Assembly: GCA_964608405.1 (NCBI GenBank)
Contig: CAZSNC010000002.1
Location: 8,155 to 70,112, forward strand
Direction: 5' to 3'
Source: an uncultured Gammaproteobacteria bacterium
GTDB taxonomy: Bacteria > Patescibacteriota > Microgenomatia > UBA8517
Length of the DNA: 61,958 nt
Of the stretch, positions 4,271 through 35,525 are shown one piece after another (the stretch's first letter is position 1; each line of letters starts with the position of its first letter). The notes beneath the pieces are model-generated. The model was given only the letters and a program-made list of their open reading frames with translations, was not told the DNA's origin and did not search any database. Both the position numbers and the translations under genes were made by a program.

Positions 4271-4299
4271 TTGCAATTAAATCAAATGTAACCTATAAT
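4271..4299 (+). promoter_or_regulatory. Sigma70-type promoter for the 4332-10847 operon
   Basis: TTGCAA (4271-4276), a 17-nt spacer, then TATAAT (4294-4299), about 30 nt upstream of the first start codon. Confidence 0.6.
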
Positions 4300-4331
4300 A
4301 TAGCAATATTGGTAGTACCAAATTGAATATT

Positions 4332-5804
4332 ATGGAAAAAATAAGATTATTAGTTATAGGAATAGGTCCGCATTGTAGAAGAGTATACCTTCCCGCAATG
4401 AAAGAATTGGGAAAGGTATTTGATGCCGAAATAGTTTTAGGTATTGATGTTAAACAAAATGCTTGTGAAATATCAGAATATTGCCTAAATAATAATTTTA
4501 ATTTTCCAATTTACTTTATTGATCCTTTTCCTCCTGCTGAAAAACTTCCAATCAAATTACAAGAGAAACTTTCCAAGTTTGTGTACGATAACAAAATTAA
4601 CGCAGTAATTATTAGTACTGAACCCCTTGTTCATGCCGCTTATGGTCGTTGGGCATTATCCGAGAAACTACATATCCTGATGGATAAACCCATTTCTACG
4701 CGAACGGGAGTAGTGGAAAACCTAAAGCAAGCTAAAGGAATAATGAAAGATTATGATGACCTTTTAGAAGAGTATCAAAAACTACAAAAGGTTAAAAAGA
4801 CGATATTTTCCGTCAATGTTCAGCGACGTTATCATATTGGTTTTCGACATGTATTGAATTTGATTAATGAAGTATCTGGTAGGTTTAACGCTCCTGTCAC
4901 ATCGATACAGAGCATGCACGCGGATGGTCAATGGCGTCTACCGGATGAAATTATCACACAGATTTATCATCCTTATTGTCAGGGTTATGGAAAGTGTTCC
5001 CACAGCGGTTATCATATTTTTGATATAGCCTCGATGTTTTATAAAGCAGGAATCAGACCCGGAAAAGTTCCGAATAAGGCTGAAGTTTATTCTTCATTCG
5101 TCGACCCAAGGGGATTTATTAAACAGTTTAACCAGGATGATTACCGAAAATATTTTGGTAATGATTATATGATAAAAAATAACTGGACTGATAATAAACT
5201 TGATAAAATGTATAAAGGATTTGGAGAGTTGGATTCTTTCAGTACAATTAGGTTACTTAAGGATAATGATAATATTTGTAATATTTCCATTAATTTAATG
5301 CATAATTCTTTTGCCAGACGAACTTGGCTTCAACCCGGGGTGGATTTATACAAAGGGAATGGTAGAGTGAAACACGAATACCACAATATTCAACAAGGTC
5401 CGTTTCAGTGTATCCAAATTCACAGTTACCAAGTTAATGACAAACATGATATTAACACAGATCAAGACTTAGACTGGGGAGGTAATAACCATTTTGACAT
5501 CTATGTATATAGAAACGCAGGTATGTTTGGACGTACAGAAAAACCTATTCAACTATACAGAATATCCGATCTGGACTACGATAAATTATACTCTCTAAAT
5601 AAATTAGCTTCAGAGACAGCTAAACAAATAGTTTTGAAAGAGTTTTTAAGTTACATACGGAAAATAATAAAAAAGACAGAACTCATTTCCAGTATTGAGG
5701 ACCACTGGTGGGGTGTTAAATTTATGAGTTCTGTTTATGTTTCTCACATCATGAGTCAACAAAATAAAACACCTATAGTTCGATTCAATTTAAATCACGT
5801 ATGA
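4332..5804 (+). CDS. Gfo/Idh/MocA-family NAD(P)-dependent oxidoreductase, with a long divergent C-terminal half
   Basis: N-terminal Rossmann segment IRLLVIGIGPHCRRVYLPAM and family motif ISTEPLVHAAYGRWALSEKLHILMDKP. ATG at 4332 is preferred over the TTG at 4323 used by the ORF track. Confidence 0.7.
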   Translation: MEKIRLLVIGIGPHCRRVYLPAMKELGKVFDAEIVLGIDVKQNACEISEYCLNNNFNFPIYFIDPFPPAEKLPIKLQEKLSKFVYDNKINAVIISTEPLVHAAYGRWALSEKLHILMDKPISTRTGVVENLKQAKGIMKDYDDLLEEYQKLQKVKKTIFSVNVQRRYHIGFRHVLNLINEVSGRFNAPVTSIQSMHADGQWRLPDEIITQIYHPYCQGYGKCSHSGYHIFDIASMFYKAGIRPGKVPNKAEVYSSFVDPRGFIKQFNQDDYRKYFGNDYMIKNNWTDNKLDKMYKGFGELDSFSTIRLLKDNDNICNISINLMHNSFARRTWLQPGVDLYKGNGRVKHEYHNIQQGPFQCIQIHSYQVNDKHDINTDQDLDWGGNNHFDIYVYRNAGMFGRTEKPIQLYRISDLDYDKLYSLNKLASETAKQIVLKEFLSYIRKIIKKTELISSIEDHWWGVKFMSSVYVSHIMSQQNKTPIVRFNLNHV

Positions 5805-7186
5805 AACATACTACATACAATTCAATAACAGCTAATGAGGCTATCTGTAAAGGTTTTTTTGACGGAGGTTGTCAGATGGCCTTTAACTTCCCCGGTTTTA
5901 AAAGCCATTTAATTTTTTCATCACTGGGTGGAAAACAGATTTCTATAAATGAAAAAGTTGCATATGAAGAGGCTTTCGGCTCATCTTTGGCTGGAAAACG
6001 TACCGTAGTCAGCTTTAAAAATGTAGGGTTGAATGTTGCGGCTGACGCGTATTTGAACTCCCTTATTAGCGGTGTTAATGCTGGATTGGTTGTAGTGGTT
6101 ACTGAAGACACAGATGTTTCCGATTCACAAAATCTTATGGACTCTCGATATTATATGGAATTTTATGGAGGTTTGTGGCTGGAACCTTTTGATCCTCAGT
6201 CTGCATACGACTTGGCATATCATTCGTTTGCATGGTCGGAAAAGTTTCATCTACCCGTGGTTATACGCTTGACTAGTCGGCTGTTTGATACAACAGGTAA
6301 ATTGACAACGAAAATAAAAATAAATTATTCAGGTAAACCTGTATACAATCACGACCAATATATTATCCATCCTACCAACTGGAAAAAACAGCAGGTAGAA
6401 TTAAACCGTAAAAACACTAAAATTAGAAAATTTGTAGAAAGTATTTATCGTCAAAATACCCTGAAGAATATTAATGTAATAGCTTTCGGAGCTTGTGGGA
6501 GCGATATAGCGGATGCAAATCTTTCAAAATCAAATTTGCTTCAGATCTATACATATCCTTTTCCAGAATCGCTTATTGAAAAAACAATTATAAACAATCC
6601 AGAGATAAAAGTGTTCGAGGTTGGGGGAGTTTACGCTCTGTCTAAAATTAACCAATATATTGGGCATGGTTTTCGAGAGATCAAAAATAACCCCAGTATT
6701 ACCCCAGACCTATCTTCTACATATAGGGTTTGGAATAAACTAGAAAATCTTTTTCGTAGTATAAAATACACAAATCCTGACTATGTAATCGCTGATTTAA
6801 CTCAATTTACAAGAGAAAATACTGATACAGTTGACAGTTGTCTATGTCTGGGTTCAAGCGTGGCGGTGGGTATAGGTTTTGCAATGTCTGGTTATATGAA
6901 TGTGGTTGCGGTAGTCGGAGACGCGTCCTTTATCCACGGTGGAACTGACATACTTACAGAAGCAGTATTACGGAAGGTTAAAATATTAATTGTACTTGTG
7001 GATAATGGTGGCTCTTGGTGTACTGGAAACCAAAAACCAATTCCTTTTAATAGAATTAAAAATATTCAAGGTATCAGCTACAAAAAAATAGATTATACAA
7101 CCACGACGGCTGATCAACTTAGGGGCATCGTCAAAAAATGCAGGGAAACTCCTGGTGTTACCTTGTTGCATCTATTAACAAAATAA
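5801..7186 (+). CDS. Thiamine-diphosphate enzyme related to indolepyruvate:ferredoxin oxidoreductase alpha (IorA), lacking the 4Fe-4S ferredoxin insert
   Basis: FKNVGLNVAADAYLNSLISGVNAGLVVVVTEDTDVSDSQNLMDSRYY resembles the IorA/POR pyrimidine-binding domain. C-terminal ThDP motif GDASFIHGG...VDNGG. No CxxCxxCxxxC clusters. Its ATG overlaps the upstream stop (ATGA, 5801-5804). Confidence 0.65.
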   Translation: MKHTTYNSITANEAICKGFFDGGCQMAFNFPGFKSHLIFSSLGGKQISINEKVAYEEAFGSSLAGKRTVVSFKNVGLNVAADAYLNSLISGVNAGLVVVVTEDTDVSDSQNLMDSRYYMEFYGGLWLEPFDPQSAYDLAYHSFAWSEKFHLPVVIRLTSRLFDTTGKLTTKIKINYSGKPVYNHDQYIIHPTNWKKQQVELNRKNTKIRKFVESIYRQNTLKNINVIAFGACGSDIADANLSKSNLLQIYTYPFPESLIEKTIINNPEIKVFEVGGVYALSKINQYIGHGFREIKNNPSITPDLSSTYRVWNKLENLFRSIKYTNPDYVIADLTQFTRENTDTVDSCLCLGSSVAVGIGFAMSGYMNVVAVVGDASFIHGGTDILTEAVLRKVKILIVLVDNGGSWCTGNQKPIPFNRIKNIQGISYKKIDYTTTTADQLRGIVKKCRETPGVTLLHLLTK

Positions 7187-7193
7187 TTATTCC

Positions 7194-7811
7194 ATGAAAG
7201 AAAAAACGATATACATAGAGGGTTTAGACAAAACCGGTAAAGATACACTTGCGGAAAAATTATGTGCTTATTTTGGCCCCGAAAATGTGATTGTAAGAAA
7301 AGGGTTCATAGCACAATGTAGTCCATACATCGAACAATTAAATAATAAACTCAAAGAAGAACAAAGAGACGAAGATGATATTCTCAAGATTTGTTCTCAA
7401 GCAGCCCTCTTTGATTATACAGATTGCTTTGGTGTATGTAATCTTAAATGTTTTAAGGGAAATACATTAATTATCGTATCTCAAGTGGCTCCTAGGTCAT
7501 ATTCGTATCACAGTGGTTTTCAAACAGGTAAAGAAGAATTGTTTAGAAAGACGTGGAATAAATTCGACCCGAATAAAATTGATTTACCGATATTATTGAC
7601 AGTATCTCCGGAGATAAGAAGCCAGAGGACTAACAGTGAAACAGCATCTCGTCATGACCTGGACTTGGTTACCCATCCCGAGGCTACAATTAAGGCAGAT
7701 ATAGCTTTGAGAAAATTACTAGAAGAAGCTTTTAAATCAAGACTGCTTTTAATTGATACCTCTAACAAAGATCAAGACCAAGTTTTTAATTTAGCCATTA
7801 AACAATTATGA
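7194..7811 (+). CDS. Thymidylate-kinase-like P-loop protein with an atypical Walker A
   Basis: 205 aa. IYIEGLDKTGKDTLAEKL resembles the Tmk GxDGxGKTT motif, but Asp follows the Lys. Confidence 0.55.
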   Translation: MKEKTIYIEGLDKTGKDTLAEKLCAYFGPENVIVRKGFIAQCSPYIEQLNNKLKEEQRDEDDILKICSQAALFDYTDCFGVCNLKCFKGNTLIIVSQVAPRSYSYHSGFQTGKEELFRKTWNKFDPNKIDLPILLTVSPEIRSQRTNSETASRHDLDLVTHPEATIKADIALRKLLEEAFKSRLLLIDTSNKDQDQVFNLAIKQL

Positions 7812-9031
7812 ACTATACCAAAATAATAAGCAGGGTAAAGGATGAAGAAAAAATAAATCGGGGATTTTTACATTTGACTGCGAATGAAAACCAAATGTCT
7901 AATACGGCCCGATATTTCTTGAATTCCAAACTATCCGAACGTTACTACTTTGGGCGGGGTTTAAATGGGATCGCGGGTAACGGTATTTTTACCTGTTTAG
8001 GTCTTGGAAGAGTTGCTGATCTTGTTGAAATGGCTATCGAGTCAGCAAAGAAGATGCTAAATGCAGAATCGATAAATTTGTCGTGTTTATCTGGGGTTCA
8101 TGCTATGATGTGTACAATTCTTTCCGTAACTGAACCTGGGGATTATGTAATTACAGTGCATCATAACAACGGTGGCCACTTTGCCACCAAAGGAATATTG
8201 GAAAGGGTTGGTAGAAAACAACTGTTTGCAGCATACGACGTAGAAAATAACTGTTTTGACTATGAACAAATCGTTAAGGATTGCACGCGTTTTAATGTAA
8301 AGGCAATTTATTTTGATATATCTTACTACCTGGAACCAATTATGATAGAAAAATTGAGATTGAAAATTAACCCTAAAACAGTGATTATTTTTGATGCCAG
8401 TCATACTCTGGGGTTAATTATGGGAAAAGCTTTTAGTAACCCATTTAGTCAGGGGGCAGATGTTATTTGCGGTAATACTCATAAAACCCTTCCAGGCCCG
8501 CAAAAAGGAATGGTTTCGTTTAAACACAAAGACCTTGGAGATAAAGCCAATAGGATAATTGACAGTTGTTTGTATTCATCTGCACATACACATCACCTGC
8601 TTTCTCTGGCCGTAACTATACTTGAAATGGATAAGTTTGGTGAATCTTATGCTGCACAAGTAGTGAATAATTCGAACGCCATCGGTGCAGCTTTTGAAAG
8701 ATTGGGTTACGAAGTTAGAAAAACAGTCGACGGTAAATATTCATATAATCATCAGTGTCATGTATTTTTACCAAAGGATTCCAATCCCTTGCGTTTATAT
8801 AAGAATTTAATAAATAACAATATTTCTACCAACTTTGATGATCCGTTGGGTGGGCGAGTGTTTATTAGGATTGGTACACAAGAAATAACCAGACGTGGAA
8901 TGAAAGAAATTGATATGGAGAGAGTTGCAGACTATGTTGATTTAGCCTTAAGGGGTAAATCAGTGGTTAACGAAGTATTGATGTTCAACAAAGAATTTTC
9001 AAAGATTTACTATTCATTTGATAATAACTAA
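7808..9031 (+). CDS. Serine hydroxymethyltransferase-fold PLP-dependent enzyme (divergent)
   Basis: 407 aa. LTANENQMS (compare SHMT ASENF) and PLP-lysine motif GNTHKTLPGPQKG (compare SHMT THKTLRGPRGG). ATGA overlap with the upstream gene. Confidence 0.65.
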   Translation: MNYTKIISRVKDEEKINRGFLHLTANENQMSNTARYFLNSKLSERYYFGRGLNGIAGNGIFTCLGLGRVADLVEMAIESAKKMLNAESINLSCLSGVHAMMCTILSVTEPGDYVITVHHNNGGHFATKGILERVGRKQLFAAYDVENNCFDYEQIVKDCTRFNVKAIYFDISYYLEPIMIEKLRLKINPKTVIIFDASHTLGLIMGKAFSNPFSQGADVICGNTHKTLPGPQKGMVSFKHKDLGDKANRIIDSCLYSSAHTHHLLSLAVTILEMDKFGESYAAQVVNNSNAIGAAFERLGYEVRKTVDGKYSYNHQCHVFLPKDSNPLRLYKNLINNNISTNFDDPLGGRVFIRIGTQEITRRGMKEIDMERVADYVDLALRGKSVVNEVLMFNKEFSKIYYSFDNN

Positions 9032-9033
9032 TT

Positions 9034-10311
9034 ATGTCTCATTTTGTAGAAAGGGTAACTGGTGTAGAAGGCTCTTCTTTTTCAGGTAAGTCTACGTTAA
9101 TTAAAGAAGTTCACAACAAGGGCAACTCAGTGTCGGTAATTCCTGAAACCTGCGATATTGTTGGTGGAAATAGACATTTTAGACAGATTCCATTTACCTC
9201 TATACAGGAAGCACAACTAAACACACATTACTTTTTGGAGGTTGAAAAAAGAAGATGGGGTCAAGCTTTAGAATTGGTTAAAAAACCAAATCAGCAAGTT
9301 CTCATGGATCGAATTACCCCTTTTTCGTCAGTTATGCTATTTGCGTTGTTGCGCAATAAGTATCCAGAATTACACGGATTTTCTGGTGATTACGAATATG
9401 CTGTCGAACAGTATCAAAAAGCATTGGACGCAGGAGAAATATTCTTACCTAACCGGATGATCTTTGTTAATACTGATCCTGATAGTTTTTCCCAGAGAAA
9501 ATCTCGAGGTACAAGTGTTAATCCTTTCGGTTTATGGGATACATATCAATTTAACCAGGCCTACTATCATAAAATTGCTGACAATTATTATCCCGGTGAC
9601 TATTGTGTATGGATTAATTCAGACAATGCTGATGGATCTTTAGAAAATTCTGCGCGTTGTGCCCTTGATTATATATTGGGCACCGAACAGTCTCGTATTA
9701 TTAATATAAATCTTAAAGATGTCTTTTCAGATGCGCAATCGGAAATTGCTCCCGATTTAGACAAAAAGGCGATAGATCAAGAAAAAAATCGTGTATTGAC
9801 ATTAATGGAGAAAGCCAAATATGAATATTTGAAATTTGACGAAGGTGTTGCCTTAAGACCGGGTGAAAACATTAAAGATCAAGAAGCCTTTCGGGGTCAA
9901 GTTCTAAAGACGCTATATAATGAGTGGGGTTTTGATTATGACCCGACATTAAATTATGACCTGGACCATCCCGATGAGGTATATAGTGGAAACGGGAAGT
10001 GGTGGGTTCTTGAAGACAATGGAAATATAATAGGAACGATGGCTGTTGAGGACCATGGTGATCGTTGTCACTGGCGTCGTCTTACGTTGGACCAAGAATA
10101 CCGAAATAGGGGTTGGGGAAGAATGTTAAATGTTGCTATGATTAAATATTGTCAACAAGTGGGTTTTAAAACAGGCTACTTTGACACAATTAAAGATACT
10201 GGTGTCTACAAATTATACGAAAGTTTAGGTTGTAAGATAGTTGCTGAATATCAAGAAGGTCCTTATACTAAGGTTGATATGGAGGTTGATTTAACACAAG
10301 CTAATTTATGA
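9034..10311 (+). CDS. Fusion protein: N-terminal P-loop (deoxynucleoside-kinase-like) domain plus C-terminal GNAT N-acetyltransferase domain
   Basis: Walker A GVEGSSFSGKSTL near the N-terminus. The C-terminal WRRLTLDQEYRNRGWGRMLNVAMIKYCQQVGF matches GNAT motif A (R/Q-x-x-G-x-G/A). Confidence 0.6.
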   Translation: MSHFVERVTGVEGSSFSGKSTLIKEVHNKGNSVSVIPETCDIVGGNRHFRQIPFTSIQEAQLNTHYFLEVEKRRWGQALELVKKPNQQVLMDRITPFSSVMLFALLRNKYPELHGFSGDYEYAVEQYQKALDAGEIFLPNRMIFVNTDPDSFSQRKSRGTSVNPFGLWDTYQFNQAYYHKIADNYYPGDYCVWINSDNADGSLENSARCALDYILGTEQSRIININLKDVFSDAQSEIAPDLDKKAIDQEKNRVLTLMEKAKYEYLKFDEGVALRPGENIKDQEAFRGQVLKTLYNEWGFDYDPTLNYDLDHPDEVYSGNGKWWVLEDNGNIIGTMAVEDHGDRCHWRRLTLDQEYRNRGWGRMLNVAMIKYCQQVGFKTGYFDTIKDTGVYKLYESLGCKIVAEYQEGPYTKVDMEVDLTQANL

Positions 10312-10847
10312 AAAAGTTTATATTGAATCTCAAACTAAACAAACCGATTGCAAATTTGTATCGCGATCGGCATGTGTTGATTGTCTGTCTTGATGAAAAC
10401 GGTAAAGTTATATTAGGTGACAAACCCGATTTTTACCCTGAAGGTGTAACCAGATTGATAGGTGGTGGAATAAATAAGGATGAAGATGCCAAGGATGCCG
10501 CATTGAGAGAACTTCATGAAGAGATTGGTATTAAAATACCCAAGAAAAGTCTAAAAGACTTGTGCGAAATAGACATTAATGCTGAAGCTGACGGAGTGGT
10601 ATACCATCTGATTACATACCTATATAAAACTGAAATTAACTCTCATAATATTAAGACTGGCGATGATGTTTCCTCAGTTTCTGCTCTTTCATTAGACCAG
10701 CTGAAACAATTGGCGGATAAGTATGAATCTTTACCATCCGACTTGGTGTTTTGTCACAGCAGTGGTTATACCCACTTATGGAGTGATTATGGGAAAGTAT
10801 ATGGCCCGATTCACCGCATAGTATACGAGCTTCTGATTAATGCTTAG
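10308..10847 (+). CDS. Nudix hydrolase
   Basis: Nudix box GGGINKDEDAKDAALRELHEEIGI (G-x5-E-x7-REUxEExGU). ATGA overlap with the upstream gene. Confidence 0.8.
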   Translation: MKKFILNLKLNKPIANLYRDRHVLIVCLDENGKVILGDKPDFYPEGVTRLIGGGINKDEDAKDAALRELHEEIGIKIPKKSLKDLCEIDINAEADGVVYHLITYLYKTEINSHNIKTGDDVSSVSALSLDQLKQLADKYESLPSDLVFCHSSGYTHLWSDYGKVYGPIHRIVYELLINA

Positions 10848-10914
10848 GGATAGATTGAGATCAAGTCTATAAAAGCGCTACAAGGAGTATAAATTTTAAT
10901 AAAGTATTATATTG

Positions 10915-10999
10915 TGCCGAGGGAGGGGGTCGAACCCTCACAAGCTGTTATGCTTACAGGTTTTTGAGACCTGCGCGTCTGCCATTCCGCCACCTCGGC
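10915..10999 (-). tRNA. tRNA-Leu (anticodon CAA)
   Basis: The reverse complement GCCGAGGTGGCGGAATGGCAGACGCGCAGGTCTCAAAAACCTGTAAGCATAACAGCTTGTGAGGGTTCGACCCCCTCCCTCGGCA folds as a cloverleaf. It has a 7-bp acceptor stem, anticodon loop CUCAAAA, a long variable arm and T-loop TTCGACC. CCA is not encoded. Confidence 0.9.
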
Positions 11000-11076
11000 T
11001 TGTCAACTTCTCTTTATAGTTTATCAAATTCCTTTAAAATAATCCGTATTTGGAATATACTTACGTACCTTAAATT

Positions 11077-12153
11077 ATGGACCAGAGAATTGTCAAACAA
11101 GCCGATATTTTAGTTAATTATTGTCTTAAGGTAAAGAAGGGGGAAAAGGTTGTCTTGATATCTGATTTTCAGGCAAAACCACTGGCTTTGGAAGTTTACA
11201 AAAGCTTGATTAAAAACGGTGTCTCTGAAGTAAGGGTTAAATTTGATTCATATGAGTTTTCAAAGGCATATTTTGAAAATGCCTCACTGGCCCAGTTGAA
11301 ACATTTTCCCACAATTGAGAATTATGAGACCAAAAATGCGGATTGTTTTATCCGTATATCGGCCCCCGGTAATACCAGAGCACTAAGTTCAGTGGATGCT
11401 GCAAGGATCAGTTTGAGATCCAAGACAACCCGTTCAATTTCAGACTTTCGGGTTGAACATACAAGATGGGTTATAACACAGTATCCGACCGAAGCTCAGG
11501 CACAGGAGGCTGATATGTCTCTTGCTGAATACGAAGACTTTGTTTTTTCGGCAATCAACGGTGTTGACTGGCAGAAAAAATGGAAAGAACAGGAGAATTT
11601 AAGAAGACTTCTTGATAAAACGAATATTGTTAAAATTATCGGTAAAGATACAGATTTGACATTGTCAATTAAGGGTAGAAAAGCTGAAAATGCCGGAGGA
11701 AATTTTAATATGCCGGATGGTGAAGTTTTTACATCGGTTGATGAAAAGTCCGTAAACGGGTATGTCAGATATACATTTCCGGCTCTTTACATGGGAAGGG
11801 AGTTTGCAAACGTTTGTCTTGAATTCAGAAATGGTAGGGTGATTAATGCGCAAAGCGATAAAAACAGCAGCGACTTGAATAAGATTCTAAATATGGACAG
11901 GGGAGCGAGGTTTGTCGGTGAGTTTGGTATTGGCAATAACTATGCAATAAAACGATTTACTAAAAATATTTTGTTTGATGAGAAAATTGGCGGGACGGTT
12001 CACCTGGCACTGGGGAAGGGGTATAAATCAACCCTCAGTAAAAACACGTCTGCGCTTCATTGGGATATGATAAAAGACCTTAGAAGTGGTGGAGAGCTTT
12101 ACTTTGACGGTAATCTTGTACAGAAAGACGGGAATTGGAAAATTAAACTATAA
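11077..12153 (+). CDS. Aminopeptidase, M29 (PepS/AmpS) family
   Basis: 358 aa. N-terminus ADILVNYCLKVKKGEKVVL and the overall length and pattern are typical of thermophilic-metalloprotease M29 enzymes. Confidence 0.75.
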   Translation: MDQRIVKQADILVNYCLKVKKGEKVVLISDFQAKPLALEVYKSLIKNGVSEVRVKFDSYEFSKAYFENASLAQLKHFPTIENYETKNADCFIRISAPGNTRALSSVDAARISLRSKTTRSISDFRVEHTRWVITQYPTEAQAQEADMSLAEYEDFVFSAINGVDWQKKWKEQENLRRLLDKTNIVKIIGKDTDLTLSIKGRKAENAGGNFNMPDGEVFTSVDEKSVNGYVRYTFPALYMGREFANVCLEFRNGRVINAQSDKNSSDLNKILNMDRGARFVGEFGIGNNYAIKRFTKNILFDEKIGGTVHLALGKGYKSTLSKNTSALHWDMIKDLRSGGELYFDGNLVQKDGNWKIKL

Positions 12154-12160
12154 TCTAGTC

Positions 12161-12658
12161 TTAATTGACAAGCCAGATCAGCGACGCAGCAATCGTCATT
12201 ATGGGCGATGCTAATCCCCAAACAATACCGGTGTTAAACTGGTGTCTTTTTTGAAACGAAAGCCATCTTTTTAAAAAATCCTTTTTGTAATTCAGAAAAA
12301 TATACGGAGCTTCGATTAAATCGGGCAGAACTGCCAGGAAGCAGCAGACAAAAATGAGCAATGTTTTTTTAATGTCCGGTAAAAAGGAAAGTGCAATTGC
12401 CGAACCGCCAACAAGGGCAATTGAAGAATCAGCGATTATGATCTTCATACTTTTTGGGTCAATCACCTTGACACCACCTTTTTTAGTAGTGATGTGTGGA
12501 TTCCAGTGCGGCATTTCATCGAAAACAAAATGGGGTAAGTGTGCCATAGGAATAGCAAGTACGGGGTTTGCTGCTTTTGCGGCGATAACTGCAGCAACTA
12601 TTGTATGTGGTGTTTCGAGCACAAGTAACATATTAAAGAAAACGAAGCCTACTGTCAA
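12161..12658 (-). CDS. Hypothetical polytopic membrane protein (possibly a DUF457/YdjM-like membrane hydrolase)
   Basis: 165 aa with several hydrophobic helices and conserved-looking His residues (HTIV, HLPH, HWNPH). Preferred over the antisense ORF 12354-12686. Confidence 0.5.
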   Translation of the reverse strand: MTVGFVFFNMLLVLETPHTIVAAVIAAKAANPVLAIPMAHLPHFVFDEMPHWNPHITTKKGGVKVIDPKSMKIIIADSSIALVGGSAIALSFLPDIKKTLLIFVCCFLAVLPDLIEAPYIFLNYKKDFLKRWLSFQKRHQFNTGIVWGLASPIMTIAASLIWLVN

Positions 12659-12711
12659 ACCTATGTTGTGCTATTATTCAAGTTAAAGGCACCAAATAAA
12701 GTATTTAATAT

Positions 12712-13299
12712 ATGGAAATTATAATAATCGCTACCTGCTTTATAATTTTTTGCTTTGTTTTTTGGCGTGAATTGAAAGAAGACTACATTCCAAGCCAGAT
12801 ATTTTCAACGGCCTTGACGATAGGATTTTTTCTTCTTCTTAGTTATCTTTTAAGCGCGTATTTTTTTAAACAATACAGATTTTGGCTTCTAACGATCTCA
12901 ATAATACTCGGATATGTTATAGGTTCTAAAAGGACCGGTCTGAAATATTATGAAGGTTACGACAACATGATTTTGGGAGTATCGGTGTCGCTTATAGCCT
13001 CATCCTTCATTTTGATAAAATATTTTAGTATTGCTTGGGTTTTATTTTATGCCTCTGTAATTTTGTCATTGGGGATATTTATTTTGATTAGAAGAAACTA
13101 TAAAGCTTTCATATGGTACAAATCAGGGAAAAGAGGTTTTTCGGGTCTGTTTACCGTGGGAGTATTCTTTTTATTAAGATCGATCATATCTTTTGCAAAA
13201 CCCGATTTTACTCTTGCGCTTACGGAGTACGACATGTTTATTTCAGGATTGATTTCTTTTGCGTCTTTTCTTAATATATTTATATTGGCTAATAAATAA
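12712..13299 (+). CDS. Hypothetical polytopic membrane protein
   Basis: 195 aa with about 6 hydrophobic segments. No family recognised. Confidence 0.55.
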   Translation: MEIIIIATCFIIFCFVFWRELKEDYIPSQIFSTALTIGFFLLLSYLLSAYFFKQYRFWLLTISIILGYVIGSKRTGLKYYEGYDNMILGVSVSLIASSFILIKYFSIAWVLFYASVILSLGIFILIRRNYKAFIWYKSGKRGFSGLFTVGVFFLLRSIISFAKPDFTLALTEYDMFISGLISFASFLNIFILANK

Positions 13300-13302
13300 A
13301 AT

Positions 13303-13701
13303 ATGGCAAAAAATAAAAGTACTGAAGTGAAGAAAACCTCTTTAAAGTTTCCCTCAAATCTGGTTACCCCGATTGCTGGAATATTGAAGTTGAATCTCAA
13401 GAAAATGGAGGATCAGAAAAAAGACATTATTAAGGAAGACCCCTTTAAAAATCATGCAAGAATAACAGATAACGCTTCACCAGATGCCGATGCTGAAGAG
13501 CAGTTCGGACATGCTCGAACATCCGCCTTACGTGAACAGATTGATAGACAAATAATCCAAACACGAAAAGCACTTACCAGGATAAAAATTGGGAAGTATG
13601 GTATTTGTGAGGACTGTGGCAATATGATTGACACCGACAGATTGATGGCGTACCCCGAGGCTACGCTTTGTAAAACCTGCAAAGCAAAGCGCGAGAAATA
13701 A
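13303..13701 (+). CDS. DksA/TraR-family C4 zinc-finger protein
   Basis: C-terminal CEDCGNMIDTDRLMAYPEATLCKTC (CxxC-x17-CxxC), preceded by a coiled-coil-like region. Confidence 0.75.
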   Translation: MAKNKSTEVKKTSLKFPSNLVTPIAGILKLNLKKMEDQKKDIIKEDPFKNHARITDNASPDADAEEQFGHARTSALREQIDRQIIQTRKALTRIKIGKYGICEDCGNMIDTDRLMAYPEATLCKTCKAKREK

Positions 13702-29976: not shown

Positions 29977-31713
29977 ATGACTGCCCAACCTCAAAATATA
30001 TCGGGTATTATAGATGGTGTAAAAACACTCGCCGATATTTTGCTTTTACAGGGCTCAATTACACAAGAACAAGCGCGGCAAATTAAATTTACCGAGATCC
30101 AAACCGGAAAGACTCAGGAAGAAATTGTTCTTGAGCAGGGATTTGTCCAGGAAAGTGATTTGGTGCGTGCAAAATCCACTTTGTATAACATTCCCTATTT
30201 GGATTTGGAAAAGACTCCCAACTCCCCTGAGGCACTTTCGGTTCTTCCACAACAGGTTGCTCAAAGGTTTAAAGTTTTTCCCATCTCGATAGATAAAAAT
30301 CTCAAGATTATGAATCTTGCGATGGCGGATCCTTTAGATTTGACCGCAATCGGATTTATTGAACAAAAAACGGGATATCGTGTTAAGCCATATGCTGCTG
30401 AATTAACAAAGATCAATACAAGCGTATCTACCTCCTACTCGACATCATTAGCAAAGGAAGTAACGGAAGCCCTGAAGGAAGTTGCACCGGAAAAAAGAGA
30501 TGTTCAGGTTGTAGATACGGGAAGAACAGGCGTCGTCAGAGAAGAGAAAGTATCAGAGATTGTCAGGCAGATACTGAGTTTTTCAGTGAAATCAAGGGCT
30601 TCTGATATTCACATTGAACCGCAAGAAAAAACGACACGTGTCCGTTACAGGATCGATGGTATTTTACAGGAGAAACTGACTATTCCGAGAGAGTTGCATG
30701 ACGCGCTAATTTCAAGAATCAAGATTCTTTCCGGGATGAAAATCGATGAAAAGAGAATTCCCCAAGACGGAAGATTTAATTTTTCAACAGAGGAAGAAGA
30801 AGTAGATCTTCGTGTCTCGACCTTACCGACAACCTGGGGTGAAAAAGTCGTTATCAGATTACTTAAAAAAACCGGAGGAATTCCCGATCTTACGGAACTT
30901 GGGCTTCGCGGCAGGGCTTTGAAGAACCTTGAGGATTCGATAGTAAGGCCTCACGGAATTATTTTGATCACAGGTCCTACCGGTTCCGGAAAAACGACTA
31001 CCCTTTACTCAATTATCCAGAGGATAAATACACAGAAGGTTAATATTATGACACTCGAGGACCCTATTGAATATAAAATTGCTGGTGTTAACCAGGTACA
31101 GATAAATCAGGGTGCCGGATTGACTTTTGCTTCCGGATTGAGATCTTTTTTAAGGCAGGATCCGAACATTATTCTTGTTGGAGAAATTCGTGACCAGGAA
31201 ACTGCTGATCTGGCTATACAGGCATCACTAACAGGTCATTTAGTCTTTTCAACTCTTCACACAACAGATGCGTCAGGAGCACTTCCCCGTATGCTTGATA
31301 TGGGAGCGGAACCTTATCTTTTGGCCTCGTCAATTACCGCGATTATGGCACAAAGGGTTATGAGGAAAATCCATACTGCCTGTAGGACAGAATATGCTCC
31401 TGATGAAAAAGTCTTGTCCGAAGTTAGAGCGACGCTTGGGAATTTATGGAAACCGACAGGAGATGTGAAGTTTTATAAGGGATCAGGATGTAATGAGTGC
31501 GGGAATACAGGATACTACGGACGTGTCGGAGTCTTTGAGGTATTGCTTGTTTCCGAAAAAATTAGTAGGCTTATATTGGAGCATGCTTCTTCAGCAGATA
31601 TTGAGAAAGTTGCCAAAGAAGAAGGGATGGTTACAATGAAACAGGACGGTTATATGAAGGTTGTTGAGGGTATAACCACCATTGAAGAAGTGCTCAGGGT
31701 TGCTGAAGAATAA
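29977..31713 (+). CDS. pilB: Type IV pilus assembly ATPase PilB (GspE family)
   Basis: 578 aa. N-terminal GspE_N-like domain, Walker A GPTGSGKTTT, Asp box, Walker B ILVGEIRD, His box, tetracysteine CRTEY...GSGCNECGNTGYYGR. Confidence 0.93.
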   Translation: MTAQPQNISGIIDGVKTLADILLLQGSITQEQARQIKFTEIQTGKTQEEIVLEQGFVQESDLVRAKSTLYNIPYLDLEKTPNSPEALSVLPQQVAQRFKVFPISIDKNLKIMNLAMADPLDLTAIGFIEQKTGYRVKPYAAELTKINTSVSTSYSTSLAKEVTEALKEVAPEKRDVQVVDTGRTGVVREEKVSEIVRQILSFSVKSRASDIHIEPQEKTTRVRYRIDGILQEKLTIPRELHDALISRIKILSGMKIDEKRIPQDGRFNFSTEEEEVDLRVSTLPTTWGEKVVIRLLKKTGGIPDLTELGLRGRALKNLEDSIVRPHGIILITGPTGSGKTTTLYSIIQRINTQKVNIMTLEDPIEYKIAGVNQVQINQGAGLTFASGLRSFLRQDPNIILVGEIRDQETADLAIQASLTGHLVFSTLHTTDASGALPRMLDMGAEPYLLASSITAIMAQRVMRKIHTACRTEYAPDEKVLSEVRATLGNLWKPTGDVKFYKGSGCNECGNTGYYGRVGVFEVLLVSEKISRLILEHASSADIEKVAKEEGMVTMKQDGYMKVVEGITTIEEVLRVAEE

Positions 31714-31721
31714 AAGTTTTT

Positions 31722-32783
31722 ATGGGAATTAAGGATTTACTCGAATTGACGGTTCAGAGAAAAGCATCGGATTTACATATTATCTCCGGTCTTCCCCCCT
31801 TTATTAGAATTGAGGGGGTGTTGTCCCCCGTAAACAGTGCACCTATTTTGACACAGGATGTTATTGATAAATTCCTGAAAGAAATAATGCCGCCTGAAAA
31901 TTTGGAAAGGTTTTATGTAAATAAAGAGTTGGATTTTTCCCTGGCTTTTTCACAAAGAGCAAGATTTAGAGTAAATGCATATACACAAAAAGGTACTTAT
32001 GCAATTTCATTCAGAATGATTCCGATTGAAATTGCCGATATGGACTCTCTTGGATTGCCGAAGATCCTGCATTCTTTTACAAACCTCAGACAGGGCTTTA
32101 TTTTGGTTACCGGTCCGACCGGTCACGGAAAATCAACTACTCTTGCGGCGCTTCTTAATGAAATTAACTCTACCCGCTCGAGCCATATAATAACGATAGA
32201 AGACCCAATTGAGTTTGTATTCAGACCAAAAAATTCGATTATTTCGCAAAGAGAAATGGGATCTGACTCATTATCTTGGGGAGTAGCATTAAGAAGCGTA
32301 TTGAGGGAAGATCCGGATGTTGTCATGGTTGGGGAAATGCGCGATTACGAGACCATTTCTGCAGCATTAACCATTGCGGAAACCGGACATTTGGTTTTTG
32401 CAACACTGCATACCAATTCGGCGGCACAGACAATAGACAGAATTGTCGACGTCTTTCCCGACGAGCAACAAAAACAGGTAAGGCTGCAGCTTTCCAATGT
32501 TATAGAAGCTGTCTTTTCGATGAGGTTGGTTCCTTCAGTCTCCGGAGAGAGATTGGTAGCGTATGAAGTAATGCTGGGAACATCGGCGGTTAAAAGTTCC
32601 ATCAGGGAAGGAAAAACACACCAAATTGATAATATTTTACAGACTTCTACAGAAGTGGGAATGAATACGTTGGAAATGTCACTTGCAAGTTTGGTTAAGG
32701 CTGGTAAGGTCCAGTATGAAACGGCACAATCTTTTTCACTGCGACCGGAAGAGCTGGCAAGACTAATTAGATCAGCAAAATGA
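31722..32783 (+). CDS. pilT: Type IV pilus retraction ATPase PilT
   Basis: 353 aa. ASDLHI, GPTGHGKSTT, TIEDPIEF, VMVGEMRD, GHLVFATLHT. Confidence 0.92.
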   Translation: MGIKDLLELTVQRKASDLHIISGLPPFIRIEGVLSPVNSAPILTQDVIDKFLKEIMPPENLERFYVNKELDFSLAFSQRARFRVNAYTQKGTYAISFRMIPIEIADMDSLGLPKILHSFTNLRQGFILVTGPTGHGKSTTLAALLNEINSTRSSHIITIEDPIEFVFRPKNSIISQREMGSDSLSWGVALRSVLREDPDVVMVGEMRDYETISAALTIAETGHLVFATLHTNSAAQTIDRIVDVFPDEQQKQVRLQLSNVIEAVFSMRLVPSVSGERLVAYEVMLGTSAVKSSIREGKTHQIDNILQTSTEVGMNTLEMSLASLVKAGKVQYETAQSFSLRPEELARLIRSAK

Positions 32784-32816
32784 ATCATTGATTCAGTGAT
32801 TCATTGAATCAATGGC

Positions 32817-34022: not shown

Positions 34023-34036
34023 TTCCCTCCCCCTCT

Positions 34037-35521: not shown

Positions 35522-35525
35522 AGAC

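What the first reader, a model, noticed from the sequence alone, without database searches (positions are those of the whole stretch)
4271..10847. Translationally coupled six-gene operon mixing nucleotide-handling and tailoring enzymes, with no pathway I can name
Seen: a near-consensus promoter (TTGCAA-17-TATAAT) precedes six same-strand genes. They have three ATGA start/stop overlaps (5801-5804, 7808-7811, 10308-10311) and gaps of only 2-7 nt elsewhere, so one transcript with coupled translation is very likely. Motif evidence gives six products: a Gfo/Idh/MocA dehydrogenase; an IorA-like ThDP enzyme; a Tmk-like P-loop protein with an odd Walker A (GLDKTGKDT); an SHMT-fold PLP enzyme (THKTLPGP lysine); a dNK-like kinase fused to a GNAT; and a Nudix hydrolase (GGGINKDEDAKDAALRELHEEIGI). 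By eye the block is more AT-rich than dnaB on its left, and it ends about 70 nt from the 3' end of tRNA-Leu. Established: SHMT-fold enzymes act as transaldolases on nucleoside 5'-aldehydes in liposidomycin/caprazamycin-type pathways (LipK). P-loop kinases plus PLP enzymes build phage thymidine hypermodifications. Nudix/kinase pairs edit nucleotide pools. Inference: the operon makes or remodels a modified nucleoside or nucleotide, possibly carrying an amino-acid-derived, N-acetylated side chain. That would make it a candidate natural product, nucleic-acid base modification, or nucleotide-based antiviral chemistry, rather than housekeeping glyA/tmk.
Basis: partly seen in the sequence, partly recalled or inferred. 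Interest (0 to 1): 0.8.

Follow-up and report, generated by a model that had tools for sequence, protein, structure and literature searches.

The report
Conserved uncharacterised nucleotide-linked enzyme operon
This six-gene operon in a tiny-genome (Patescibacteria-type) bacterium belongs to a previously undescribed gene cluster found in dozens of uncultured bacteria, and it most likely builds or remodels an unusual nucleotide or nucleoside-linked amino acid rather than doing routine housekeeping.

Summary
Six same-strand genes (4332-10847) have three ATGA overlaps and gaps of 2 and 7 nt. All six family-level calls hold. The important result lies outside the window. The first two genes form an obligate pair found in 43 fetched loci (37 non-redundant): an atypical ~490-aa Gfo/Idh/MocA dehydrogenase and a ~460-aa IorA-derived ThDP enzyme that has lost every Fe-S ligand. 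The usual third gene is a divergent Tmk-like kinase. Variable accessories include an SHMT-fold enzyme, a second P-loop kinase, GNAT, Nudix and glycosyltransferases. In one architecture there are three tandem Nudix genes plus a Ham1-type NTPase. A divergently transcribed regulator recurs, made of a catalytically dead DNPH1 (dNMP hydrolase)-like domain and an RHH-like tail. The SHMT-like protein lacks the catalytic Glu and the folate loop of true SHMT and resembles the transaldolase ObiH. This holds for the whole Patescibacteria clade, including stand-alone copies, so it is not specific to the operon. The kinase-GNAT fusion is unique to this organism. I found no description of the module in the literature or in defence, phage or family databases. 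Best reading (about 0.4): a specialised pathway for a modified nucleoside or nucleotide. The product is unknown.

The parts
4271..4299 (+). Candidate sigma-70-type promoter TTGCAA-17 nt-TATAAT
   Evidence: 10/12 match and the best + strand site in the dnaB-g1 intergenic gap. Promoter-like sites are not enriched over shuffles.
4332..5804 (+). g1: atypical Gfo/Idh/MocA-type NAD(P) dehydrogenase (490 aa from ATG 4332; the ORF opens at TTG 4323)
   Evidence: PF01408 at 29.3 bits. Family alignment A2 has 51% mean column identity with invariant DKP (equivalent to the EKP Lys motif), GYGKxSHSGYH, DLYKGNGRV and GGNNHF. Only the Rossmann half matches solved structures. 303 relatives were found in metagenomes.
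5801..7186 (+). g2: IorA-derived ThDP enzyme without Fe-S clusters (461 aa), overlapping g1 by ATGA
   Evidence: TIGR03336 at E 7e-60 but 203 bits vs a cut-off of 651. The alignment with genuine IorA shows loss of the CPGC, DIGC and HPC cysteines and of the C-terminal 2x[4Fe-4S] domain, while the NEK Glu and the GD..N ThDP motif are retained. The AF2 model has pLDDT 94. The nearest solved folds are non-redox ThDP carboligases/decarboxylases at TM about 0.55.
7194..7811 (+). g3: divergent Tmk-like P-loop kinase (205 aa) with Walker A GLDKTGKDT
   Evidence: PF02223 at 26.9 bits. It is a member of a ~205-aa family that follows the ThDP gene in many loci. The family profile hits Tmk structures at 1e-7. 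The GKD variant is shared only with L015.
7808..9031 (+). g4: SHMT-fold PLP enzyme (407 aa) of the Patescibacteria clade, lacking the folate-site hallmarks; candidate folate-independent aldolase or transaldolase
   Evidence: PF00464 at 7e-28. It scores higher on the fluorothreonine transaldolase model than on the SHMT model. The best PDB hits are M. jannaschii SHMT and ObiH, nearly tied. The loop 1 and loop 2 analysis is and the tree.
9034..9780 (+). g5 N-terminal domain: second P-loop kinase (KIN2, nucleoside/NMP-kinase-like)
   Evidence: Weak dNK match at 0.003. Stand-alone homologues of 225-280 aa reach E 3e-40. The profile matches only generic NMP/nucleoside kinases.
9850..10311 (+). g5 C-terminal domain: GNAT acetyltransferase, fused to KIN2 only in this organism
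   Evidence: PF00583 at 5e-10. The stand-alone homologue P0242 is 59% identical. KIN2 and GNAT are separate adjacent genes in L011. No other fusion was found in 5.8 or 1.8 billion proteins.
10308..10847 (+). g6: Nudix hydrolase (179 aa) with an intact Nudix box, overlapping g5 by ATGA
   Evidence: PF00293 at 3e-13. Specific relatives (E 1e-19 to 1e-38) lie next to the module in L011, L015, L017 and L019.

Best explanation
The operon is one version of a widespread, undescribed gene cluster, found mainly in Patescibacteria and also on contigs binned to Planctomycetota and Lentisphaerae. I propose that it makes or remodels a non-canonical nucleoside or nucleotide, in some versions carrying an amino-acid-derived side chain. 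Proposed mechanism, with inferred steps marked. KIN2 (g5 N-terminal domain) and the Tmk-like kinase (g3) phosphorylate a (deoxy)nucleoside to the mono- and then the diphosphate (inferred from fold only). The NAD(P)-dependent dehydrogenase g1 creates or reduces a carbonyl (inferred). The tightly coupled, Fe-S-free ThDP enzyme g2 performs a non-oxidative decarboxylation or C-C ligation/cleavage at a 2-oxo centre; the loss of redox capacity is shown, the substrate is unknown. Where present, the folate-site-less SHMT-fold enzyme g4 acts as an aldolase or transaldolase that couples the resulting aldehyde to a glycyl unit and gives a beta-hydroxy-alpha-amino acid, as ObaH/ObaG do in obafluorin biosynthesis (inferred by analogy). 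The GNAT acetylates the new amine (inferred). The Nudix enzyme g6 trims the (d)NTP or NDP-X form, either to supply the monophosphate substrate or to protect the cell's own nucleotide pool (inferred). In many relatives the cluster is controlled by a divergent repressor whose sensor is a catalytically dead dNMP-hydrolase (DNPH1) domain; this window lacks it.
For: g1 sits immediately upstream of g2 in every ThDP-type locus (43 loci, 37 non-redundant), with an ATGA overlap in 18, and in 0 of 66 ordinary IorA loci. The gene right after g2 is the Tmk-like kinase in 13 of 24 informative loci and the SHMT-fold gene in 6 of 24. L015 (Paceibacterota) carries the whole window gene set in another order, and L011 carries most of it, with a more canonical Tmk in place of the module-specific Tmk-like kinase. 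The KIN2-GNAT fusion in the window links those two steps. g2 has lost all Fe-S ligands but keeps the ThDP motifs, and its fold resembles carboligases/decarboxylases. g4 lacks the SHMT catalytic Glu and folate loop, has an ObiH-like loop 1, and keeps the His/Asp/Lys/Arg catalytic set. ObiH is sister to the clade in an NJ tree. The precedent of a ThDP decarboxylase feeding an SHMT-fold transaldolase is experimental (PMC5490192). The nucleotide theme rests on several results: the Tmk-like family profile; the dead-DNPH1 + RHH regulator in 17 loci, always divergent from g1 and never in control loci; three Nudix genes + Ham1 + GT1 + a methyltransferase in L138 (L150 shares the gene order by ORF size only); and a dCMP-deaminase-like gene and a HIT gene in other loci. 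The specialised-metabolism flavour comes from variable GT, MT, GNAT, SDR, HDAC-like and alpha/beta-hydrolase accessories, and from g1 paralogues in TauD/radical-SAM/GT28/sulfotransferase/APH clusters.
Against: No product or activity is known for any of the families. The kinase assignments rest on weak, fold-level similarity. Sub-architecture B (g1-g2-SHMT-alanine racemase) has no kinase, so the g1-g2 chemistry may not need a nucleotide. g4's clade also occurs alone in housekeeping contexts, so it may simply be the resident enzyme co-opted by adjacency. The window lacks the regulator, a transporter, a resistance gene and any island signature, and it lies among core genes (dnaB, tRNA-Leu, aminopeptidase), which also fits primary metabolism. 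ThDP chemistry acting on a nucleotide has no close precedent that I know of.
Confidence: 0.4

Rival explanations
1. Primary nucleoside/nucleotide salvage or catabolism. The module would be a lineage-specific route by which auxotrophic Patescibacteria phosphorylate scavenged (deoxy)nucleosides, clean the pool with Nudix, and oxidise and cleave the sugar or another scavenged carbon skeleton (g1 + g2) for carbon, energy or glycine supply (g4).
For: CPR bacteria depend on nucleoside-based metabolism (PMC5113843, listed). The block sits among core genes with no island signature. The kinase, Nudix and Ham1 families are typical salvage or house-cleaning enzymes. A nucleotide-sensing repressor fits catabolic or salvage control. 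g4's clade is widespread in these genomes.
Against: Distribution is patchy and the architecture is highly variable. Tailoring enzymes such as GT1/GT2, a methyltransferase, GNAT, an HDAC-like deacetylase and an alpha/beta hydrolase are not expected in a catabolic route. g1 paralogues sit in clearly biosynthetic-looking clusters. The module occurs in genomes with GC from 0.27 to 0.70, which suggests horizontal spread.
Confidence: 0.25
2. An amino-acid pathway with no nucleotide substrate. g1 would make a 2-oxo acid, g2 would decarboxylate it to an aldehyde, and g4 would convert the aldehyde to a beta-hydroxy-alpha-amino acid. That product would be racemised by the alanine-racemase-like partner in some loci, or N-acetylated or O-phosphorylated here, for the cell envelope or a small peptide-like metabolite. 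The P-loop kinases would phosphorylate the hydroxy-amino acid rather than a nucleotide.
For: The ObaH/ObaG precedent. g2 derives from an arylpyruvate-using enzyme family. The g2-SHMT adjacency recurs, and so does g1-g2-SHMT-alanine racemase without kinases. FemAB genes lie near stand-alone g4 homologues. GNATs commonly acetylate amino groups.
Against: The commonest partner of g1-g2 is the Tmk-like kinase, not the SHMT-fold gene (24 vs 12 of 43 loci). The Tmk-like family keeps Tmk-type P-loop and LID arginines. The DNPH1-like sensor and the Nudix, Ham1 and HIT accessories point to nucleotides.
Confidence: 0.2
3. A chance or merely convenient juxtaposition of housekeeping genes (glyA, tmk, a deoxynucleoside kinase, a MutT-like Nudix) with two unrelated oxidoreductase-type genes in a compact genome, co-transcribed but without a shared pathway.
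For: Compact genomes pack unrelated genes tightly. g4's closest relatives occur alone in housekeeping neighbourhoods. The window holds no second copy of any of these families, and the rest of the genome was not available.
Against: The same combination recurs across phyla in different orders. g1-g2 coupling is universal in the ThDP-type loci and absent from 66 control loci. There is a KIN2-GNAT fusion. g3 is not a canonical Tmk, falling below every curated cut-off and forming its own family tied to g2. g4 lacks the SHMT catalytic Glu.
Confidence: 0.05
4. A nucleotide-based anti-phage or inter-bacterial weapon. The cluster would make a chain-terminating or otherwise toxic nucleotide analogue used against phages or against the host bacterium of an episymbiont, with Nudix and Ham1 as self-protection.
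For: The logic of kinases plus sanitising pyrophosphatases resembles viperin-associated kinase systems. There are weak PADLOC hits: g3 to VakA at 0.009 and g6 to PDC-S07 at 1e-6. L138 has three Nudix genes plus Ham1. Patescibacteria are mostly episymbionts (general knowledge).
Against: No significant match to any known defence system for g1, g2, g4 or g5. There is no defence-island context in the window. The families are absent from viral contigs, which says nothing either way about defence. No effector or sensor typical of defence systems was found.
Confidence: 0.1

Closest known systems
ObaH/ObaG (ObiH) pair of obafluorin biosynthesis (PMC5490192)
   Same: A ThDP-dependent 2-oxo-acid enzyme is encoded next to an SHMT-fold PLP enzyme that is not a true SHMT. 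g4 is about as close to ObiH (9e-43) as to any SHMT structure. It shares the long loop 1, the lack of the YAEG Glu and the NTHKTxPGPQKG motif.
   Different: g2 belongs to the IorA/2-oxoacid:ferredoxin oxidoreductase lineage, not the pyruvate-decarboxylase lineage of ObaH. There is no NRPS or aminophenylalanine genes. Here the pair sits within a dehydrogenase-kinase-Nudix module. No activity has been tested.
LipK/LipL-type 5'-C-glycyluridine formation in liposidomycin/caprazamycin-type nucleoside antibiotics
   Same: An SHMT-fold transaldolase works in a nucleoside context. A TauD-type dioxygenase, the family that includes LipL by my recollection, sits next to g1 paralogues in a sister cluster type.
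   Different: The window has no TauD-type dioxygenase, no aminopropyl transferase and none of the other genes of that pathway. The aldehyde-forming step would have to be different. g4 was not compared directly with LipK.
Indolepyruvate:ferredoxin oxidoreductase alpha subunit (IorA, TIGR03336)
   Same: It is the best sequence relative of g2 over both the Pyr and PP domains (E 7e-60). The ThDP-binding residues are the same.
   Different: g2 lacks every Fe-S ligand and the ferredoxin domain, is about 150 aa shorter, and has no IorB gene beside it. It always pairs with g1, whereas none of the 66 genuine IorA loci does.
Thymidylate kinase (Tmk, PF02223/TIGR00041)
   Same: P-loop GxDxxGK, LID-type arginines, about 205 aa, and Tmk structures are the best profile hits.
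   Different: It scores below the curated cut-offs, forms a separate family genetically tied to g2, and has a Walker A with Asp after the Lys in the window and in L015 only.
DNPH1/Rcl 2'-deoxynucleoside 5'-phosphate N-hydrolase (for the regulator found in related loci)
   Same: The N-terminal domain of the divergent regulator matches DNPH1 structures at 8e-9 over about 105 residues.
   Different: The catalytic Glu is an invariant Gln, and a ~55-aa RHH-like tail is appended. It is therefore probably a sensor and not an enzyme. It is not present in this window.
Puromycin-type aminonucleoside clusters (an oxidoreductase acting on a nucleotide, a Nudix, a GNAT and a deacylating hydrolase); recalled from memory, not tested
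   Same: The same mix of enzyme classes: an NAD-dependent nucleotide dehydrogenase, a Nudix pyrophosphatase, an N-acetyltransferase and a hydrolase that removes a protecting group.
   Different: No aminotransferase, no tyrosine-ligating or methylating enzymes, and a ThDP enzyme is present instead. No sequence comparison was possible with the tools at hand.

Membership tests
Canonical serine hydroxymethyltransferase (GlyA) | Fold-type I PLP enzyme with the Schiff-base Lys in a T-H-K-T motif | tested here: met
   GNTHKTLPGPQKG aligns with the SHMT THKT motif; PF00464 at E 7e-28.
Canonical serine hydroxymethyltransferase (GlyA) | Catalytic Glu of the loop-1 motif [KR]YAEG.PGKR.Y.G (E. coli Glu57; numbering from my own knowledge) | tested here: not met
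   g4 reads ERYYFGRG plus an insertion of about 8 aa. Bacterial, M. jannaschii and archaeal control SHMTs all keep YAEG.
Canonical serine hydroxymethyltransferase (GlyA) | Folate-binding loop 2 (NKN..P[FW]D) | tested here: not met
   It is replaced by a shorter NNISTNFDDPL..GGR in g4 and in the whole Patescibacteria clade.
Canonical serine hydroxymethyltransferase (GlyA) | Curated NCBIfam cut-off for SHMT (NF000586, 335 bits) | tested here: not met
   187.8 bits.
L-threonine transaldolase (ObiH / LipK / FTase class) | Catalytic His, Asp, Lys and carboxylate-binding Arg (ObiH H131, D204, K234, R366; PMC10495429) | tested here: met
   GGH, FDASH, THKT and IRIG..TRRG align with the ObiH residues. 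These residues are shared with SHMTs, so the result is not discriminating.
L-threonine transaldolase (ObiH / LipK / FTase class) | Remodelled folate-site loops 1 and 2 relative to SHMT | tested here: met
   The loop-1 insertion and short loop 2 resemble ObiH. ObiH is sister to the clade in an NJ tree without support values.
L-threonine transaldolase (ObiH / LipK / FTase class) | Uses L-Thr as glycyl donor with an aldehyde acceptor; no THF-dependent activity | not testable with these tools
   This needs an enzyme assay. PMC10495429 states that sequence alone does not separate TTAs from SHMTs.
L-threonine transaldolase (ObiH / LipK / FTase class) | Curated NCBIfam cut-off for fluorothreonine transaldolase (TIGR04506, 650 bits) | tested here: not met
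   227.7 bits, covering the N-terminal 381 of 609 model positions only. Stand-alone clade members score the same way.
Indolepyruvate:ferredoxin oxidoreductase alpha (IorA) | ThDP-binding Pyr and PP domains (activating Glu; GD..N motif) | tested here: met
   NEK Glu and GDASF..DNGG are retained; E51, G373, D374 and N402 are invariant in A1.
Indolepyruvate:ferredoxin oxidoreductase alpha (IorA) | Cysteine ligands for [4Fe-4S] clusters and a ferredoxin-like domain | tested here: not met
   The CPGC, DIGC and HPC cysteines and the C-terminal CxxCxxC domain are absent from all short-family members.
Indolepyruvate:ferredoxin oxidoreductase alpha (IorA) | Curated cut-off of TIGR03336 (650.9 bits) | tested here: not met
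   203 bits.
Thymidylate kinase | Pfam/NCBIfam curated cut-offs | tested here: not met
   PF02223 at 26.9 vs 27 bits; TIGR00041 at 23.4 vs 83.25 bits.
Thymidylate kinase | P-loop GxDGxGK[ST]T and LID arginines | tested here: inconclusive
   D12, G15, K16, R142 and R145 are invariant in family A3, but the window has GKDT in place of GK[ST]T.
Thymidylate kinase | Phosphorylates dTMP | not testable with these tools
   Enzyme assay needed.
Gfo/Idh/MocA oxidoreductase | N-terminal Rossmann domain above the Pfam cut-off and an EKP-type catalytic Lys motif | tested here: met
   PF01408 at 29.3 vs 24 bits. The invariant DKP aligns with the EKP of solved family members.
Gfo/Idh/MocA oxidoreductase | Recognisable C-terminal alpha/beta substrate domain | tested here: inconclusive
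   No Pfam or PDB match beyond residue ~150. The single-sequence AF2 model is unusable, pLDDT 34.
Nudix hydrolase | Nudix box Gx5Ex7REUxEExGU and the Pfam cut-off | tested here: met
   GGGINKDEDAKDAALRELHEEIGI; PF00293 at 50.4 vs 21.1 bits.
Known anti-phage defence systems (PADLOC-DB) | Significant match of the component proteins to a defence-system model | tested here: not met
   No hit for g1, g2, g4 or g5. Only weak hits for g3 (0.0016, 0.009) and g6 (1e-6).
Phage thymidine hypermodification pathways | Phage-borne genes and a DNA 5-hmdU kinase / amino-acid transferase gene set | tested here: not met
   The g1 and g2 families are absent from 2.9 million viral contigs. PHROG hits are only to generic thymidylate kinase, acetyltransferase and Nudix families. 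No 5-hmdU kinase-specific model was available for a direct test.

The most novel reading that the evidence does not exclude
Patescibacteria, thought to have almost no specialised metabolism, together with some Planctomycetota and Lentisphaerae, carry a widespread and previously unrecognised biosynthetic system. Its core is an obligate pair of an atypical Gfo/Idh/MocA dehydrogenase and a de-ironed IorA-type ThDP enzyme. In this reading it makes a new class of modified (deoxy)nucleotide or nucleoside-amino-acid conjugate, senses it through a dead-DNPH1 repressor, and protects the producer's nucleotide pool with dedicated Nudix and Ham1 enzymes. Such a nucleotide analogue could be used in episymbiont-host or phage conflict.
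Probability: 0.25. Interest if true: 0.85.

Novelty: new variant of a known kind. Interest (0 to 1): 0.66.

Why it matters
If the reading is right, it would be one of the first multi-enzyme specialised pathways assigned to the candidate phyla radiation. These organisms have genomes of about 1 Mb, so a six-gene operon is a large investment. It would define three new enzyme subfamilies with a testable genetic link. The first is an IorA descendant that has given up ferredoxin chemistry, a clear case of an oxidoreductase turned into a non-redox ThDP enzyme. The second is an atypical Gfo/Idh/MocA dehydrogenase used in at least three cluster types. The third is a module-specific Tmk-like kinase. Separately, the Patescibacteria-wide protein annotated as 'SHMT/glyA' lacks the catalytic Glu and the folate loop of SHMT. 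That would change how one-carbon and glycine/serine metabolism is reconstructed for this whole radiation. The dead-DNPH1/RHH regulator gives a direct experimental handle, because its ligand should be the pathway's substrate or product.

Tried and rejected
1. The fluorothreonine-transaldolase hit as proof of a special role for g4. I rejected this because stand-alone clade members score the same or higher.
2. g4 as ordinary housekeeping GlyA, which its stand-alone homologues next to DHFR or Beta_elim_lyase suggested. I rejected it as stated, because the whole clade lacks the SHMT Glu and folate loop. Whether the clade does housekeeping work of another kind stays open.
3. g2 as a ferredoxin oxidoreductase. 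Rejected.
4. The 'NDT-like' gene as a nucleoside deoxyribosyltransferase or hydrolase enzyme. I rejected this in favour of a sensor-regulator, given the Glu-to-Gln change and the RHH-like tail.
5. A genomic island at tRNA-Leu. There is no att-like repeat and no integrase. Low GC is the only hint.
6. A riboswitch or other RNA element upstream. Only the two tRNAs matched, and the putative 5' UTR is about 30 nt.
7. A phage origin. There are no relatives on viral contigs.
8. A known defence system. There are no convincing PADLOC hits.
9. A structure of g1.
10. Sequence searches of g1, g3 and g5 against the PDB gave nothing beyond fold level.
11. Five literature searches found no description of the module; one further search was rejected for syntax.
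12. A folate-independent thymidylate-synthesis idea (ThDP-bound C1 unit added to dUMP). I considered and dropped it on chemical grounds: ThDP intermediates are nucleophiles, as is C5 of the activated pyrimidine (my own reasoning).

Full report
**1. The observation**

The six ORFs exist as described: g1 4323/4332-5804, g2 5801-7186, g3 7194-7811, g4 7808-9031, g5 9034-10311, g6 10308-10847, all on the + strand. The coordinates give ATGA overlaps at g1/g2, g3/g4 and g5/g6, and gaps of 7 and 2 nt elsewhere. The start of g1 is most likely ATG 4332. Orthologues begin there, and gene calls on identical contigs give 490 aa.

TTGCAA-17-TATAAT lies at 4271-4299. It is the best + strand match in the dnaB-g1 gap. 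Promoter-like matches are not enriched over shuffles (36 vs 29 +/- 5.8), and no terminator follows g6. tRNA-Leu(CAA) is at 10914-10999 on the - strand, with its 3' end 66 nt from the g6 stop. The block has GC 0.359 against 0.391 for the window and is near the minimum of all 6.5-kb windows, while dnaB (0.448) is the GC-rich outlier. Rfam finds only the two tRNAs. No att-like repeats flank the block.

**2. The six proteins**

- g1 matches only the Rossmann half of Gfo/Idh/MocA.
- g2 matches IorA at E 7e-60 but scores 203 bits against a cut-off of 651.
- g3 sits 0.1 bit below the Tmk Pfam cut-off.
- g4 scores higher on the fluorothreonine-transaldolase model (228 bits) than on the SHMT model (188 bits).
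- g5 is a solid GNAT preceded by a P-loop domain with a weak dNK match.
- g6 is a standard Nudix.

PADLOC gives no convincing hit. PHROGs gives only generic families. The rest of the window is ordinary Patescibacteria-type housekeeping, including type IV pilus genes, and has no second copy of any of the six families.

**3. Is the operon conserved?**

Identical copies occur in several metagenomes and are the same organism. Homologues of g4 are abundant in Patescibacteria at 55-59% identity. The first three neighbourhoods I examined had the gene standing alone among housekeeping genes, which at first suggested an ordinary glyA.

Homologues of g2 told a different story. About 85 proteins of 445-475 aa at 33-49% identity sit in loci where a g1-like gene is immediately upstream, and an SHMT-like, Tmk-like, GNAT or Nudix gene is often nearby. 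I then scanned one genome per GTDB species with the g2 alignment and searched the ORFs of all fetched loci. A g1 homologue abuts g2 in 14 of the 18 short-family loci (L011-L028). It is absent from L019, L022 and L028 (L019 and L028 are cut near the contig end) and gives only a weak, non-adjacent hit in L017. It is present in none of the 66 loci that hold ordinary, longer IorA genes.

A metagenome scan from the g1 side gave 303 relatives. Pooling all loci gives 43 of the 'ThDP type', 37 of them non-redundant. The g1/g2 junction is an ATGA overlap in 18. The gene right after g2 is the Tmk-like kinase in 13 and the SHMT-fold gene in 6 of 24 informative loci. Locus GC ranges from 0.27 to 0.70. Named sources include Paceibacterota, Shapirobacteria and Saccharimonadia, plus contigs binned to Planctomycetota and Lentisphaerae. 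Neither the g1 nor the g2 family occurs on viral contigs.

**4. Architectures**

- A: HDAC-like> <regulator | g1-g2-TmkL-unknown 472 aa-Abhydrolase_11.
- B: g1-g2-SHMT-alanine racemase.
- C: <regulator | SHMT-g1-g2-SDR-KIN2-TmkL-GT1-Nudix-Nudix-Nudix-Ham1-methyltransferase. The downstream genes were annotated in L138; L150 shares the order by ORF size only.
- D: <Nudix | GNAT-g1-g2-TmkL-KIN2-GT2-SHMT. L015 is of this type and holds the whole window gene set in another order.
- E: L011 and L098.
- F: the window.

The window's g5 is a fusion of KIN2 and GNAT, which are separate neighbours in L011. No other fusion exists in either protein database. The Tmk-like proteins form one family (pairwise E 1e-10 to 1e-90). 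Most have a canonical GxDLAGK[ST]T P-loop; only the window and L015 have GKD. The family profile hits Tmk structures at 1e-7.

**5. What each key enzyme can and cannot be**

*g2.* Aligned with genuine IorA, the short family lacks the CPGC motif, the DIGC and HPC cysteines and the whole C-terminal 2x[4Fe-4S] domain. It keeps the cofactor-activating Glu and the GD..N motif. It therefore cannot pass electrons to ferredoxin and must be a non-redox ThDP enzyme: a decarboxylase, carboligase or lyase. A confident AF2 model (pLDDT 94) finds only domain-level matches (TM about 0.55, 10-14% identity) to acetohydroxyacid synthase, benzoylformate decarboxylase, MenD and similar enzymes. The PP domain's best sequence match is a phosphonopyruvate decarboxylase subunit.

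*g1.* The family is strongly conserved (51% column identity). It has an invariant DKP at the position of the family's EKP Lys, plus many invariant residues in a C-terminal ~330 aa that matches nothing solved. The structure could not be predicted. The same family also occurs in two other cluster types. One is TauD dioxygenase-g1-(2-hydroxyacid dehydrogenase)-GT28-like-deacetylase-radical SAM/SPASM-methyltransferase, with WYL, sulfotransferase and APH genes (27 loci). The other has a WelO5-like oxygenase, a class IV aminotransferase, an S51/GATase-like protein and an AlaRS-like protein (9 loci). g1-type enzymes therefore look like tailoring dehydrogenases recruited to several pathways.

*g4.* Its best solved relatives are M. 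jannaschii SHMT (1e-43) and the transaldolase ObiH (9e-43), well ahead of bacterial GlyA (1e-23). According to PMC10495429, TTAs and SHMTs share the catalytic His/Asp/Lys/Arg and differ in the two folate-site loops. In my alignment, bacterial, M. jannaschii and another archaeal SHMT keep [KR]YAEG.PGKR.Y.G and NKN..P[FW]D. Every member of the Patescibacteria clade has ERYY[FMAV]G plus an insertion of about 8 residues, as in ObiH, and a shortened TNFD loop. The Glu of YAEG is E. coli Glu57; from my own knowledge it is required for the folate-dependent reaction. An NJ tree without support values puts ObiH as sister to the clade. Operon-linked copies branch basally and stand-alone copies sit in a crown group.

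Two conclusions follow. g4 is unlikely to be a canonical folate-dependent SHMT. This is a property of the clade, not of the operon: the NCBIfam control on stand-alone members gives the same transaldolase > SHMT pattern.

**6. The regulator**

A ~190-aa gene lies divergent from g1 in 17 loci and in none of the control loci. Its N-terminal domain matches DNPH1/Rcl, the 2'-deoxynucleoside 5'-phosphate N-hydrolases also deposited as hmdUMP hydrolase, at 8e-9. An invariant Gln aligns with their catalytic Glu. Its C-terminal ~55 residues have the pattern of a ribbon-helix-helix domain, and the L017 member gave a weak Pfam RHH_1 hit. I infer a nucleotide-sensing repressor. The window has no copy.

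**7. Interpretation**

Shown:
- There is a conserved module with an obligate g1-g2 pair, a frequent Tmk-like partner and a changing set of accessories.
- g2 has lost its Fe-S sites.
- The g4 clade has lost the SHMT folate hallmarks.
- KIN2 and GNAT are fused in the window.
- Nucleotide-handling proteins are repeatedly associated with the module.

Inferred: a pathway acting on a (deoxy)nucleoside or nucleotide scaffold. The two kinases would supply phosphorylated forms. g1 and g2 would make or break a C-C bond next to a carbonyl. g4 would add a glycyl unit to an aldehyde, following the experimentally proven ObaH -> ObaG logic (PMC5490192). GNAT would acetylate the amine. Nudix (and Ham1 elsewhere) would trim or detoxify the triphosphate form.

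I give this about 0.4. The main rivals are primary nucleoside salvage or catabolism (0.25) and a nucleotide-free beta-hydroxy-amino-acid pathway (0.2). Chance juxtaposition of housekeeping genes is essentially excluded (0.05).

**8. Novelty**

Five literature searches and four family libraries gave no description of the module or of its three core subfamilies. All the superfamilies are known, and the cluster is of a familiar general kind, a tailoring or biosynthetic operon, so I rate it a new variant of a known kind. The interest lies in three things: its breadth in organisms thought to lack specialised metabolism, the de-ironed IorA, and the side finding that the Patescibacteria 'glyA' is probably not an SHMT.

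**9. Limits**

- Only 62 kb of the genome was available, so I could not test whether g3 and g4 are the only Tmk-like and SHMT-like genes.
- ORFs in the fetched loci were called mechanically.
- Many loci are short contigs, so absence counts are lower bounds.
- Bin labels such as Pirellula or Lentisphaerae on short contigs may be wrong.
- The tree has no support values.
- No biochemical function has been demonstrated for any of the families.

Noticed in passing
L007:8001-9224, L009:8001-9224, L010:4854-6080 and the sampled P0004-P0118 hits: The Patescibacteria-wide protein annotated as SHMT/glyA (more than 600 homologues) lacks the catalytic Glu of YAEG and the NKN folate loop, and has an ObiH-like loop-1 insertion. 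This is true even where it stands alone in housekeeping contexts. The glyA annotation for this radiation may be wrong.
   Followed up: partly
L130, L134, L136, L157, L164, L165, L156, L172 (around the g1 homologue at ~10001-11450): The g1-type dehydrogenase family also sits in a different conserved cluster: TauD-type dioxygenase - g1 - (D-2-hydroxyacid dehydrogenase) - GT28-like - polysaccharide deacetylase - radical SAM/SPASM - methyltransferase. WYL regulator, sulfotransferase, second radical SAM and APH genes occur in some of these loci (27 loci).
   Followed up: partly
L169:~8000-13500, L129:225-4000, L119: A third g1 context (9 loci): WelO5-like 2OG oxygenase, class IV aminotransferase, g1, Peptidase_S51/GATase-like, a truncated AlaRS-like protein and a YqcI/YcgG protein.
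   Followed up: no
L016:7887-8456 (-), L138:468-1067 (-), L112:3361-3978 (-), L017:4997-5593 (-) and 13 more loci: A family of ~190-aa proteins that combine a DNPH1/Rcl-like domain, with its catalytic Glu replaced by an invariant Gln, and an RHH-like C-terminal tail. The gene is always divergently transcribed from g1. It is probably a nucleotide-sensing repressor.
   Followed up: partly
L138:7432-11496 (L150:15174-17392 has ORFs of matching size and order that were not annotated): Downstream of the module lie a GT1 glycosyltransferase, three consecutive Nudix genes, a Ham1/ITPase-like non-canonical NTP pyrophosphatase and a methyltransferase, all on the same strand.
   Followed up: partly
L016:11971-13389, L112:7461-8882, L113, L115: A conserved ~472-aa protein follows the Tmk-like gene in architecture A and has no Pfam match. 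It is followed by an Abhydrolase_11 protein.
   Followed up: no
window 7220-7246 (g3 residues 10-18) and L015:11365-12003: The Walker A variant with Asp after the invariant Lys (GKDT / GKDS) occurs only in the window and in L015, the two versions that also carry KIN2 together with GNAT and Nudix. All other family members have GK[ST]T.
   Followed up: partly
window 29977-38721: A run of type IV pilus / type II secretion genes (T2SSE-like ATPase 31722-32783, T2SSF 32817-34022, several N-methyl prepilin-like ORFs), typical of Patescibacteria.
   Followed up: no
   Followed up: yes
L012:12612-13859, L106, L120:7412-8692, L168: An alanine-racemase-family gene overlaps the 3' end of the SHMT-like gene in architecture B, suggesting that the amino-acid product may be racemised or epimerised in those organisms.
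   Followed up: no
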